Assembly (NCBI RefSeq): GCF_026210795.1 | Contig: NC_089435.1 | Coordinates: 1,116,001 to 1,180,000, forward strand | Direction: 5' to 3' | DNA: 64,000 nucleotides | Origin: Rhizophagus irregularis | Taxonomy: Eukaryota | In this document: positions 4,757-10,200 of the stretch, one piece after another | Layout of the letters: every line of letters begins with the position of its first letter | How positions within the stretch are numbered: the first letter of the stretch is position 1 | Translations under genes and position numbers: made by a program | The notes under the pieces: generated by a model | Told to the model about the DNA's origin: nothing | Database searches by the model: none | What the model saw: the letters and a program-made list of their open reading frames with translations, nothing else

Positions 4757-6130
4757 ATGGATATTTCCTCTACAAAACGGAGTGGTGCACCATTAACCGA
4801 CAATGAAAAGTTGATGGTTATTAATGTTTACAATTATTTTTCGGGGGCTAACTCTAAAAAGGAGGATCATCAGAAGGTCACACTACGCAAGCATGTTGCT
4901 GAGGTGTTGGGCATAGGGGAATGTACAGTTGCGCGGGTGGTGTCAGACTGGAAGAGTCGTGGTGACAATACTTTTACACCACATAAAACCCTCGGACGAC
5001 CTAAATTACAACCTGACGAAAACCTTTCAGAAATTTTGCGCACAAAAATTTTAAATGCTAATAAAACTGCTGAGCAACTTTCTACACATACCTTACAACA
5101 ATTTCTTGCTGAAAAGGGATATGACTTGTCTAGGTGGAAGCTTTTTTGAATATTACACAAGTTGGGCTTTTATTATGGTCAAGGAGAGCGTAGAAATCTT
5201 CTTCATGAGTCACCAAACAATGTTGCCTTCCGTAGCCGTTATTTACGTTTTCGTTTTGCCAATTTAGAAGGCCAAAATGATGTTCCAAGTCGTCCAGAAG
5301 TTTTTCTTGATGAATCATATTGTCATTTGCATCACAATACTCGCAATACATGGGTTCCTCATCATGGTGTTGTTTTAGCACCTGGTCATGGTCCGTTAGT
5401 GGTAATTTTTGGAGCAATTATTGTATTCCGAAATGGATCTTCCAACAAGCTGGATGGTGAACTTGTTCCTAACTCTGTTCATATTTGGGACCCAACAATT
5501 AAACCTCCAAGTAACAGAGGAAGAAGGAGAAATAATGCTGAAGAATGGAATGATATTCCTGATGTTGTTAAAGAAGCAAATATTGTCCCTAACCAAATAG
5601 ATTATCACGGAAATTTTACTGCAGAAATTTTTGAAAACCTTTTTTCAACTCTTTGCAAAACACTTCAAGAAAAATATGGGTCTGTATGTATTCACATGGA
5701 TGGGGCAAGCTATCACAAACGAAGAGTTGAAAGTATTCCAACTTCGAGTACAAAAAAGCAAGAAATTATTGATTGGTTACATGCACATAATATTGCTTTT
5801 TCTGATGAATTAAGAAAACCAGAACTTTTGGAGCTAGTTCGAATGAACAAAGAAAAGGTCCCATTTGCTTGTGTTAAAATTGCAGAACAGTATGAACATG
5901 AAATTAATTTTACCCCTCCTTACCATTGCGAACTGCAACCTATTGAAGGTGTTTGGTCAGTTGTAAAGGGTGAAGTTGCACGTTCAGGCCCACATCCAAA
6001 CCTTTTATCTGTTAGAAATACACTACTAAATGCATTTAAAGAAAAAATTTCTTCAAAAGTTATTGTGGGACTTTGGAGAAGAGCACTTAAAAACGCTAAG
6101 GAATATTTTGAGTCTGACGAAAACATATAA
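4757..6130 (+). pseudogene. DDE transposase with one in-frame TGA (5147-5149)
   Basis: N-terminal HTH-like region (VAEVLGIGECTVARVVSDW, LGRP). FLDESY, HMDGASYH and PPYHCELQPIE motifs. ORFs 4712-5149 and 5162-6130 are in the same frame. Confidence 0.9.
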
Positions 6131-6135
6131 TTTAC

Positions 6136-9048
6136 TTATTTATTTATTTATTTTATTACTGAAAGAGTGTTAAAACCCAGGCTATTACAAATAGAAGAGG
6201 AAAGAGTTCGAAAAGACTTAAGACTAATATATGTGTATAGACCTTTGTTCGTCATCCCCTACGGGACCCCACTCTTCGATCTGTACTATTTGATAAAGTA
6301 GGACTACGCTAATAAATCAAATGGGAACTATAAAGAATCCATCTGAGAGACTAGCGGCTATCTAAAAAACAATCAAAATAGAAAAAAATAATGATCCGTA
6401 TTTTCCTTTCAACCAAGGTTGCCACCTGTGAATACTGTAAGAGGTGGAGTGGTTCACACTATTTTGAGTTGTGTTATGCATATGATAACAAAAAAGAACA
6501 GAAATGTAGCTATAACTACTGGATAAAGGTATCGTACTCCTAATAATGAGAATACTAATATATATAATATATAAATTAAATGGTCTTCGAATTTGAAGGT
6601 CCTGGGGCCAGGGAGTCATTGGTAATAGCTGGCGTAGGACGTAGTCGTTTCATCTTATGATTCAGAAATGGCAAATAATGATAATCATTATGAGCGTTGT
6701 CCCATTTATTCGGGCAGTTTTCAAACTCAGCTGTGTCATCAGATACCGCGGCTACTATGTGTGTAGGGAATCGCATCGCTCCTTGGGTTTGGAGTCTATT
6801 ATTTTTGAGGAATTTAGTAAGATGTTTATCTAAAGTTGCGTTACTAAAACCATATTCGTGATTTTCTTTTCTCTTTGCCAAATATTTAGGTATGCGAGTA
6901 TGGAAATTATCAGATGCCTCAGTTAAAGATTTAATGGTATTGAACCGAGAATAATAGTGTTTGGGAGTAGTTCCATAATAAGCTGATTCTTTGCGTAGGG
7001 CAGTCGCCTTAAGTTTTTCCAGGCTTTCTGTTTGAGCTTTTTCTACAATATGAGTCGGTACATAATTTCCAATGACTTGTGAACGGTAAATAGGACGTCT
7101 TGGGATATATTTCCCTTTTCTATCATAATGTGCTGTTTTATCCTCTTCTGGGTAGAAAGATTCATCAAAGTTATACATATAGGTGAACCATTCACGAGAT
7201 CCAGGAACAACATAACGATCGTTCACATATATTGGATCCTTTGGTATGATATCATGATATTTTGAAGGTATGAACATATCCGGGATTGGGTTATAATCAG
7301 CAGGTGGTGCCAAAGGTGCTGTAGGCACTTGACTGAGTTTAGTCATGATTTGTTTCTTGTGATTTGCGTCCATAGTGAAAAAAGGAACCAAGAACGGATA
7401 GTCGTCAGCGGTAGGGTCATATGAGGATGTTTGTACAGTAAATGTCGAACAGGTACTTTGACATATTGAGATTTCAAAAATAAAAAATGATATTTGCGCG
7501 CTATCGCCAAATAATCTTGATTTTTAGCTTTGCGATTGGAAGGTAATCGCATCTTATTAAATACACGACGGCAAGTGCGTTTAAAATGTATTTCTTGTTG
7601 CTTTTGAGTGCGTAAGTTAGGACTCAAATCATATTTGAAGTTAGACAAAGACTTACGATACATATGTCTATTGCCTCGTTTGGTGATAGAAAGAGAATCT
7701 CTAGCATGAATATTGCTGTCATACGAAATACCCAGTCGTCTAGAGGTAATACGTTTGGTTTTACCATCAAGCCATCTGTAATATAATAAATTGGCATGAG
7801 AAGCCTTAGTATTAGCAAAATCTTTTGGTATAATTGCCGGATTTTGTGCATTTTTTTGTTTAATATTGTTGAAACATTGTGTTCTTGCAAAAATATGTTG
7901 ATGAGTGACGCATGCGCATCTATGTTGCGACATGACAAAGGGGGTAGGAATACCACATTGTGTGTCTTTGTGAAAGTGTTCAGGATCATTAACATGAGGG
8001 CAAGGTATATATATGCCAAAGTAAAAGCGACGTTTCTTATAAGTAAAATTAAAAAAAGTCTTTGTAGAATAATTTCTATTAGCTGTACTATTAGCACGTG
8101 ATTTGATGATCTTAATTCTATCCAATAATTTGTTACGGAGGAAATTAAAATATTTATCTTGTACACGACGATGAAGAACTCTTTGTGATGAAAAAAAATG
8201 CGTAAGCATGCAGCTGATTTGATATTTGTTGTTAGAGAACGAACTTGTGTTATTATAACTAATCGGTTTAGTGTTCATATGATAATCATTCGTGTGTATC
8301 TTCAAATGAATTTCATTGGTGTTTTGATTATGATCAGCAAGCTCAAAAAAGAAACTCCTAGATCGGCGGATTTCATAAATCTTGTTATAACCGGAACGTT
8401 TTGGCGTAGTCACGTGAAATTTTTTCAGGGAGACCAAGAGGGTAGTTTTTTTCCCAGCGGTGAGTGAATTTTCTGAAAGAGGCGCAGTAGCCAAAGGAGG
8501 CGAAGGAGTAATGTCCTGTATGGGACTTAAAGGAGTGTTGCAAACAGGAGGTATATCATTTCTTAGTGTGTCAAGAACTTCTATATCGGCATTTAAATTA
8601 GCCTCTAATAGTTGTTCAAAATAGTCTTCGTCATCATAGTAATCTTCCGTTTCATTGTCTTCAAGATGAAGAGTTGAGTACGTATAAGGATAAATATCGT
8701 CAATATCAAGGGAAAGAATATCCTTAGCAGAAAGTACTGTTGGCCGCTCAGTATTAACTAATATGTCATCTGAGCCAGTTTCAGGTGGTGTAGAGTCACC
8801 GAGTTGAGGATACGAATGTTGTGAAGTGGAAGACCAGTCTATTTCAATAAAAGGTGTGGAAGACATATTCCTTTATAATATAGGATATTGAAGGACTAAA
8901 AACCTCGTATAAGACTGAGGCGCCCGTATGGGCCTCTCCCCCTTTAGAGTTTCAAATAGAAACTAAAAAAAAAGAAAAAAAACTTGCACTAAATTACTGC
9001 GGAAAATTAACAAAACGTAAAAAAGGGGAAAGAGTTTTTTTTCATATC
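6136..9048 (-). mobile_element. Retroposed (TPRT-type) protein-coding element lacking RT
   Basis: 14-bp TSD AACATATAATTTAC (6122-6135, 9049-9062). (TAAA)n tail at the minus-strand 3' end (6136-6157). No TIRs or LTRs. Intronless ORF. Confidence 0.85.
6576..8866 (-). pseudogene. ~760-aa protein of unknown function, split by one frameshift near 7415
   Basis: ORFs 7343-8866 and 6576-7391 overlap and join by a 1-nt shift (..KHPHM / PTADDYPFLVPFF..). Acidic N-terminus, Cys/His cluster (CPH..QCG..CACVTHQH), basic core. Confidence 0.7.
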
Positions 9049-10200
9049 AACATATAATTTACCGATGACGAATTTGATGCTTATAGTAGTTCCGATGATG
9101 ATCACGTGATTTGACGTAATATTTATATCATATCTTTCCCAATATATACTGATAATATTTATTAAATAAAAAAAGAAAATTACATAATAAAATTTTTTTT
9201 ATCGATGCAATATCTGAGGTATCAATCTTTTTGCAACGGCCCATATCGGAGAATTTAATGAATTAATATAAAATTAATAAGTTATAGCACAAAATTAATA
9301 ACACAAATTAATATACAATATGTGCCACAAATTTATTAAATTTGATTCCATTAAATTTCTAAATTGTGCTATAAAATTACAAAATTTATTATATCTTTGC
9401 TGCGAAATTAATGATATGAGATTTATAAATAATGCTTAATCACTATTTATATTAGAATAATATTTCGATTTTTGCAAAAAGAATATATATCACATTTTTG
9501 GAATAATGCTAGCTTGTGTTTCATTATGAAACTTTTCGTATGTTGACAAGTGACAACGTCAATCAAATGATCGGCAAATTCGTGAGATGTCACCCAAGAT
9601 CTATAAAATTTAAGTAAAAAATTTCACAAAATCAATCACATGATGATATTATAATTAATAAAAATAAGCAAATTTTATTACTTTATATATTAGCTGTATA
9701 TTAGTAACTATGAAAATAATACCTACTTTATTTAATTTCTACAGTTAAAATATAAATATTTAATTATTGATAAAAAAAATCAATATAAATTGAATATTTT
9801 CACATAAATGTAATATATTTACTCAAGTCAAAAAGGCCAGAGTTTCAGAGTTAGGGTAGTTTTATCATAATTCTAATGTAGTGACTTTGTTATTCAATAT
9901 TTCAATGTGATTTAAGTGAGATTTTTCAAATATTAAAGAGGTCTTTATTAATTCACAAACATATATTATGTATGATGCAAGGTATCATATGCATTTATTA
10001 TTTAAAAAAAAAATTGCATGAAGAACTACAAAAAATTTAACCAGAAAAATCTTTGTTTCGAATAATTCTTGTGGAATGATCGACATCGATAACGGAATAA
10101 TGCTAAGAAGCTCCATTACGTAATGCTTACATAAGTGATTATATTATTATGACATAATTTATTATAAATATTTGAAAAAAATTTTGAGCTTTGAAAAACA

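What the first reader, a model, noticed from the sequence alone, without database searches (positions are those of the whole stretch)
6122..9062. RT-less, protein-coding retroposon with its own ~760-aa ORF
Seen: a 2913-bp insert with a 14-bp TSD and a (TAAA)n tail, landing antisense at the end of a transposase. It has a ~180-nt 5' leader, one intronless ORF (one frameshift) and a ~440-nt 3' UTR. I see no RT, APE or DDE motifs. The protein has an acidic N-terminus, a Cys/His cluster, an R/K-rich core (SRRLGISY) and a PGSREWFTYM motif. Known: a variable-length TSD plus simple-repeat tail is the footprint of target-primed reverse transcription. Inference: a non-autonomous element mobilised in trans by a LINE that keeps a novel, probably nucleic-acid-binding, protein. 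The alternative is a retrocopy of a host gene.
Basis: partly seen in the sequence, partly recalled or inferred. Interest (0 to 1): 0.8.

Follow-up and report, generated by a model that had tools for sequence, protein, structure and literature searches.

The report
Gene-carrying passenger retroposon of mycorrhizal fungi
A 2.9-kb piece of DNA carrying one gene of unknown function and no copying enzyme has landed inside another jumping gene of a root-symbiotic fungus, and it belongs to a large, old, unnamed family that likely spreads by borrowing another element's reverse transcriptase.

Summary
Confirmed. A 2913-bp insert (6136-9048, minus strand) with an exact 14-bp target duplication and a short (TAAA)n tail interrupts a Tc1/IS630-type transposon with perfect 30-bp terminal repeats. 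The host is Rhizophagus irregularis or very close to it. The insert's single ORF (763 codons, broken here by a 1-nt deletion) has no RT or endonuclease. It belongs to the uncharacterised DUF8211 family, which has at least 8 dispersed loci in one assembly and members in R. diaphanus, R. clarus and Glomus cerebriforme. A homolog at 42% identity has the same layout: same 5'-terminal motif, one intronless ORF, same 3'-UTR block. Diverged contigs from sequencing runs also join the ORF to that block with no room for an ORF2. The basic core folds confidently and has four conserved C/C/C/H residues, a likely zinc site. Best reading: a non-autonomous, protein-coding retroposon moved in trans by a LINE, working like HAL1/HeT-A/Ag-Sponge. 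Not shown: target duplications at other copies, the partner LINE, whether the protein descends from an ORF1p, and expression. My searches found no paper naming DUF8211. The scan noted ORF-only retroposons of other families on other DNA before (Psilocybe, mussel).

The parts
6122..6135 (.). Target-site duplication, left copy (14 bp)
   Evidence: Exact repeat with 9049-9062; 3 of 5000 random pairs reach it
9049..9062 (.). Target-site duplication, right copy (14 bp)
6136..9048 (-). The retroposon, 2913 bp
   Evidence: Bounded by the TSD and nested in a Tc1-type element
9027..9042 (-). 5'-terminal motif, 16/16 identical in L001, where similarity also begins. A second shared 11-nt word lies about 40 nt into the element. 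Likely promoter or RNA cis signal (inferred)
   Evidence: 0 of 5000 random 90-mers of the window share a 16-nt word with the 5' end
8867..9048 (-). 5' leader, 182 nt
   Evidence: close homologs start at the Met at 8866
6576..8866 (-). Single intronless DUF8211 ORF, 763 codons in relatives' frame, broken here by a 1-nt deletion within 7416-7426
8468..8866 (-). Acidic, mostly low-confidence N-terminal region (pI 4.05, 21% D/E)
7424..8467 (-). Conserved basic core (348 aa, pI 10.5, 19% K/R), predicted alpha/beta fold with pLDDT 91 and pTM 0.78. C290, C305, C320 and H323 are 97-100% conserved (likely zinc site)
6136..6575 (-). 3' UTR with tail, 440 nt
6415..6472 (-). Conserved 3'-UTR block, shared with L001 and with diverged contigs in all 4 runs laid. 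Holds a possible 6-bp stem with one compensatory change
   Evidence: stem not more stable than shuffles
6136..6158 (-). (TAAA)n-type tail, 23 nt
4601..9245 (+). Host Tc1/IS630-type DNA transposon: TIRs 4601-4630 and 9216-9245; HTH + DDE_3 transposase with stops; an acidic 18-codon stretch resumes at 9058-9114 after the insert

Best explanation
The insert is one copy of a dispersed, multi-species DUF8211 family of single-gene elements with no reverse transcriptase, likely a non-autonomous retroposon that a LINE's enzyme copies in trans. Shown: insertion with a 14-bp duplication and TAAA tail, one ORF, conserved 5' and 3' ends, many paralogs, purifying selection. Inferred steps: (1) the conserved 5' motif drives or marks a 2.9-kb transcript; (2) the basic, probably zinc-binding core binds that RNA in cis as a chaperone or scaffold, as ORF1p does; (3) an endonuclease-RT ORF2p from an autonomous LINE recognises the 3'-UTR block or tail, nicks an AT-rich target (the target's ATTTA can pair with a TAAA tail unit) and copies the RNA by target-primed reverse transcription, leaving the staggered duplication. 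This copy later lost one base and is probably dead.
For: TSD and tail inside a transposon with perfect TIRs. Two diverged transposon contigs (about 81-82% alike) stop matching at 6121 and run on for 1425 and 229 other letters, as empty sites would (X2 record 19 and X18 record 12; the tool skips 6123-6163). 99 homologs among 4995 candidates: 85 R. irregularis, 7 R. diaphanus, 7 unnamed; 86 of 99 carry PF26638 and none carries another Pfam domain. G. cerebriforme (2) and R. clarus (1) among 10 distant hits looked up. L001 (42% aa identity) has the same 5' motif, one 808-codon ORF and the same 3'-UTR block. Single diverged contigs join the ORF core to that block in 3 of 4 runs; one 2221-nt contig leaves no room for an ORF2. 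Predicted last exons of P0007 and P0057 read through the same 3'-UTR sequence. Window vs L001: pS 0.77 (saturated), pN 0.38 over 324 codons. Many deep subfamilies, with R. diaphanus in three places (quick tree). An APE-RT LINE with a 16-bp TSD lies in the same window, so such machinery exists in this genome.
Against: Only this copy has both flanks, so TSDs at other copies are unseen. L001 ends 324 nt after its stop without showing a tail. No partner LINE was identified: the window's LINE has a poly(A) tail and no DNA or protein similarity to the element. One contig (X1 record 5, 796 nt, 73 differences, no gaps) joins a diverged transposon to a diverged element 3' end at the same site. That may be an assembly mosaic, or it may mean some spread came from riding the transposon. 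Nucleic-acid and zinc binding are inferred from composition and conservation only. Expression is not shown: the only run on record as RNA held 0.07 of the words.
Confidence: 0.7

Rival explanations
1. DUF8211 is the ORF1 of an autonomous LINE family in Glomeraceae; most copies carry a separate ORF2, and this copy and L001 are occasional internal deletions.
For: ORF1 and ORF2 are separate proteins, so protein searches cannot exclude a downstream ORF2. ORF1-only derivatives are known (PMC5786205, passage read). Many contigs sharing the 3'-UTR block run on upstream into unlike sequence (loose ends at 6463/6472).
Against: The ORF-then-3'-UTR layout recurs in the window, in L001 and in diverged contigs of 3 of 4 runs. 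It is also implied by P0007 and P0057. The one full LINE in the window has an unrelated ORF1.
Confidence: 0.12
2. DUF8211 is an expanded host gene family, and this is an ordinary retrocopy of one member's mRNA.
For: R. irregularis has many expanded and orphan gene families (PMC8647823, passages read). Only one copy is shown to have a TSD. This copy is frameshifted, as a processed pseudogene would be.
Against: The tail is a TAAA repeat, not poly(A). The 5'-terminal 16-mer and a 3'-UTR block survive at 42% protein identity, which is unusual for host paralogs. L001 is intronless too. The copy is full length to the conserved 5' motif.
Confidence: 0.1
3. The family descends from an RNA virus or satellite RNA segment of Glomeraceae that is repeatedly endogenised by LINE RT.
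For: A single-ORF RNA with conserved termini and a basic nucleic-acid-binding-like protein would look like this (inference).
Against: Copies grade continuously from 95% to about 30% identity within genomes and occupy many chromosomal loci, which fits genomic replication. No relative among IMG/VR contigs or PHROGs (weak tests for fungal RNA viruses).
Confidence: 0.05
4. The DUF8211 protein itself catalyses the movement, as an unrecognised nuclease or polymerase of an autonomous element.
For: The core is large, well folded and conserved.
Against: Few conserved acidic residues in the core (E176, D195). The TSD-plus-tail footprint is what LINE ORF2p leaves (established knowledge; PMC5753468 passage).
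Confidence: 0.03

Closest known systems
ORF1-bearing non-autonomous LINEs: HAL1 (L1 clade), HeT-A (Jockey clade), Ag-Sponge (CR1 clade); PMC5786205 and PMC5753468, passages read
   Same: One protein, no ORF2, retroposon footprint; presumably moved in trans.
   Different: Those derive from a known LINE by internal deletion and their protein is that LINE's ORF1p. Here no parent LINE is identified, and the 763-aa protein matched no ORF1-type Pfam family.
DUF8211 / PF26638 proteins of Rhizophagus
   Same: The protein is a member: the 100%-identical P0004 carries PF26638.
   Different: Databases list these as hypothetical host proteins. No paper in the library holds the term. The link to a mobile element comes from this work.
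SINEs
   Same: No RT, simple-repeat tail, TSD, conserved 3' region.
   Different: 2.9 kb, protein-coding under purifying selection, and no Rfam match in the element.
SINEU-3 / Tx1-Mar insertion into Mariner-N4_AMi (PMC4494074, passages read)
   Same: A non-autonomous retroposon inserted antisense in a Tc1/mariner-type element.
   Different: Targeting is established there. Here there is one insertion and one ambiguous contig.

Membership tests
Non-LTR retroposon (TPRT footprint) | Target-site duplication of about 7-20 bp | tested here: met
   14 bp exact; one copy only
Non-LTR retroposon (TPRT footprint) | 3' poly(A) or simple-repeat tail; no LTRs or TIRs | tested here: met
   23-nt TAAA-type tail; no terminal inverted or long direct repeat of the insert among those listed
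Non-LTR retroposon (TPRT footprint) | Dispersed multicopy family with shared ends | tested here: met
   8 OCT59_ loci on 5 contigs; ends shared with L001 and run contigs
Non-LTR retroposon (TPRT footprint) | Different TSDs at other copies | not testable with these tools
   No genome held; L001 lacks its 3' end; the read tool skips the tail
HAL1/HeT-A/Ag-Sponge type | One protein, no ORF2 | tested here: met
HAL1/HeT-A/Ag-Sponge type | Protein homologous to a LINE ORF1p | tested here: inconclusive
   No ORF1-type Pfam match in 51 members; no match to the window LINE's ORF1; fold searches uninformative
HAL1/HeT-A/Ag-Sponge type | 5' and 3' parts shared with an autonomous LINE | tested here: inconclusive
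   Only one LINE could be compared and it shares nothing; other LINE families of the genome were not available
Autonomous LINE | RT and endonuclease encoded in the element | tested here: not met
   The same scan finds RVT_1 and Exo_endo_phos in the window's real LINE
SINE | Non-coding, with a small-RNA-derived head | tested here: not met
   Conserved ORF; no Rfam match at E up to 1
Processed pseudogene / retrogene | Intron-containing parent gene | not testable with these tools
   No genome; the only other DNA copy seen (L001) is intronless
DUF8211 (PF26638) | Sequence homology to the domain | tested here: met
   86 of 99 homologs, including a 100%-identical one, carry PF26638. The local Pfam copy gave no hit

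The most novel reading that the evidence does not exclude
An old lineage of protein-coding satellite retroposons in Glomeraceae that never had a LINE parent. Its only gene encodes a zinc-binding nucleic-acid-binding protein with its own fold, which captures a LINE's RT or shields the RNA from silencing. It would account for the whole DUF8211 'gene family' and part of the unclassified repeats of mycorrhizal genomes.
Probability: 0.3. Interest if true: 0.8.

Novelty: new variant of a known kind. Interest (0 to 1): 0.6.

Why it matters
About 30% of R. irregularis genomes is unclassified repeat, and the published curation kept elements only if a transposition domain was found (PMC11075540, passages and section 5 read). 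An element like this would be missed and its ORF counted as a host gene. If right, an expanded DUF family is reassigned to a mobile element. It also gives a fungal case of a protein-coding non-autonomous retroposon that has kept its gene under selection across genera. That makes an open question testable: what does such a passenger gain from making its own protein?

Tried and rejected
Genome: no whole genome was held. Longer or fused forms: none among 4386 candidates of 890-2540 aa (weak by the tool's own note); the best 150 of 322 representative hits are at most 697 aa; neither test excludes a separate ORF2. Fold searches gave no clear match, which shows neither a different nor a new fold: Foldseek PDB and BFVD on the full model, BFVD on the core, VIA wide best Z 3.5, e.g. 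rmsd 3.8 over 55 residues, VIA second look best Z 2.6. Model residues before about 220 were barely tested. PDB sequence search: best E 0.61. PHROGs: 0 of 4 proteins. Pfam on 51 members: one weak DUF1140 hit. ESM Atlas on the core: best score 0.77, chance level; the full-length query did not complete. No relative in viral contigs or prokaryote genomes. Rfam: nothing in the element; one chance-level snoRNA hit in L001, so no ribozyme evidence. UTR folding is no better than shuffles (z -1.3 to +0.5). A search for other proteins with a predicted exon from the 3' UTR, meant to catch RT proteins sharing this end, returned only the query. Four guessed transposase products were not in the collection, so the transposase's natural C-terminus is unconfirmed. 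The window's own LINE was rejected as a shown partner. A 10-nt word shared by the element's 5' and 3' ends is modest (86 of 5000 shuffles, 22 of 5000 random pairs; noticed post hoc) and I do not rely on it. Summed contig depths were not used as copy numbers. The element's 5' junction was not examined in reads. The maximum-likelihood tree did not finish; the quick tree is cited (71 of 130 rows, those with at least 250 core residues). Literature: 'DUF8211' 0 papers; six other searches listed no description of this element, judged from listings. Subscription papers, Repbase/Dfam, paper supplements and the authors' online TE library were not seen and may hold it as an unnamed repeat.
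Full report
Observation. The window holds an exact 14-bp direct repeat at 6122-6135 and 9049-9062 that occurs nowhere else and cannot be extended. Only 3 of 5000 random window pairs at the same spacing share a word that long. Between the copies lie 2913 bp. On the minus strand these read as a 182-nt leader, an ORF from 8866 to 6576 in two frames, and a 440-nt 3' UTR ending in 23 nt of TAAA-type repeat. The insert sits at the 3' end of an HTH + DDE_3 transposase, inside a Tc1/IS630-type element with 30/30 complementary terminal repeats at 4601-4630 and 9216-9245. 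An acidic 18-codon stretch resumes after the right copy. The transposase has in-frame stops, one inside the duplicated target and present in both copies, so it was probably already damaged when the insert arrived (inference). Two diverged transposon contigs from public runs stop matching at 6121 and continue with other sequence, as empty sites would; the tool skips the tail region, so this is suggestive only.

Host. Proteins identical to parts of the ORF are on record from Rhizophagus irregularis. Sel1-kinase and BTB/TLDc-like neighbours fit that (the Sel1 and BTB/TLDc labels are my reading of the translations). No genome was held.

The protein. Neither frame matches the local Pfam copy. The homolog search found 99 proteins among 4995 candidates: 85 R. 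irregularis, 7 R. diaphanus and 7 unnamed. 86 carry PF26638 (DUF8211) and none carries another domain. The representative search found 322 hits. Of 10 distant ones looked up, 2 were Glomus cerebriforme, 1 R. clarus, 3 R. irregularis and 4 unnamed. Intact relatives of 700-830 aa span both frames. A copy 94.6% identical is in frame across 7416-7426, where the window lacks one base. Contigs of two runs match the window across that site without a gap. The protein has an acidic N-terminus (pI 4.05), a basic core (pI 10.5) and a variable C-terminus. From a 130-sequence alignment the core folds with pLDDT 91 and pTM 0.78. C290, C305, C320 and H323 are 97-100% conserved, along with many aromatic and basic residues; a zinc site and nucleic-acid binding are inferred from this. 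The fold is unassigned (see Tried and rejected).

A family, not a one-off. Another has 15 loci. A quick tree of 71 of 130 rows shows many deep subfamilies, with R. diaphanus in three places. The one homolog with DNA, L001 (42% identity; 1 locus from 389 candidate stretches), begins with the same 16-nt motif (0 of 5000 random matches). It has one intronless 808-codon ORF and carries the same 3'-UTR block, but ends before any tail. Window against L001 gives pS 0.77 and pN 0.38 over 324 codons, which indicates purifying selection, although the alignment is protein-guided. In public runs, 20 of 24 listed rows from 9 studies hold the stretch or part of it. In 3 of 4 runs laid, single diverged contigs join ORF blocks to the 3'-UTR block, one within 2221 nt, too short for an ORF2. 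Predicted last exons of P0007 and P0057 read through the same UTR.

Against and open. TSDs at other copies are unseen. No partner is identified. The window's APE-RT LINE (16-bp TSD at 48612 and 56672, poly(A) tail) shows that such machinery exists here, but it shares no sequence with the element and its ORF1 is unrelated. A separate ORF2 behind some DUF8211 genes is not excluded. One 796-nt contig joins a diverged transposon to a diverged element end at the same site. An assembly mosaic, hitch-hiking on the transposon, or targeted insertion as in SINEU-3/Tx1-Mar (PMC4494074, passages read) could each explain it. Expression is untested.

Mechanism. Most likely (0.7) the element is transcribed from its conserved 5' end, makes a basic protein that binds its own RNA, and is inserted by a LINE ORF2p through target-primed reverse transcription. 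The footprint, layout and family are shown; every biochemical step is inferred.

Comparison. It works like HAL1, HeT-A and Ag-Sponge, which encode only ORF1p (PMC5753468 and PMC5786205, passages read). Membership is inconclusive because neither ORF1p homology nor a parent LINE was found. It fails the tests for an autonomous LINE and for a SINE. R. irregularis carries L1-Tx1, R1, I, RTE, CR1 and R2-Hero LINE families, and published curation required a transposition domain (PMC11075540, passages and section 5). Passages of PMC11952901 and PMC8647823 did not describe such an element. No paper in the library holds 'DUF8211'. Supplements and external TE libraries were not seen. Earlier scan notes describe ORF-only retroposons in Psilocybe and a mussel; sequence look-ups found no look-alike of this one.

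Verdict. The feature is real. It is a new variant of a known kind, interest 0.6.

Noticed in passing
window 48612-56687 (+): Apparently full-length LINE: 16-bp TSD (48612, 56672), a 713-codon stop-to-stop ORF1 with no Pfam hit, a 2094-codon stop-to-stop ORF2 with Exo_endo_phos and RVT_1, and a poly(A) tail. Unrelated in sequence to the DUF8211 element.
   Followed up: partly
window 5486-6281 (run X1, record 5): A 796-nt contig with 73 differences and no gaps joins a diverged Tc1 copy to a diverged element 3' end at the same site. Assembly mosaic, hitch-hiking or site preference; unresolved.
   Followed up: no
proteins P0039, P0054, P0055, P0074, P0079, P0086, P0088: These share the window protein's acidic N-terminus, but most lack PF26638 and, where read (P0054, P0055), continue into a far more diverged core. 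This suggests 5'-part swapping between subfamilies.
   Followed up: no
window 48200-48380 and 56706-57270: By eye, the same repeat of about 180 nt lies on both sides of the LINE. The right copy is interrupted by a MITE-like segment of about 180 nt that recurs at about 57075-57265.
   Followed up: no
window 11230-14801 (-) and 24632-26140 (-): A kinase frame (Pkinase) behind a long Sel1-like repeat ORF, and a BTB/TLDc-like ORF (labels read from the translations): typical expanded Rhizophagus gene families.
   Followed up: no
window 9027-9042 and about 6195-6208: A 10-nt word near the element's 5' end recurs near its 3' end; modest significance.
   Followed up: partly
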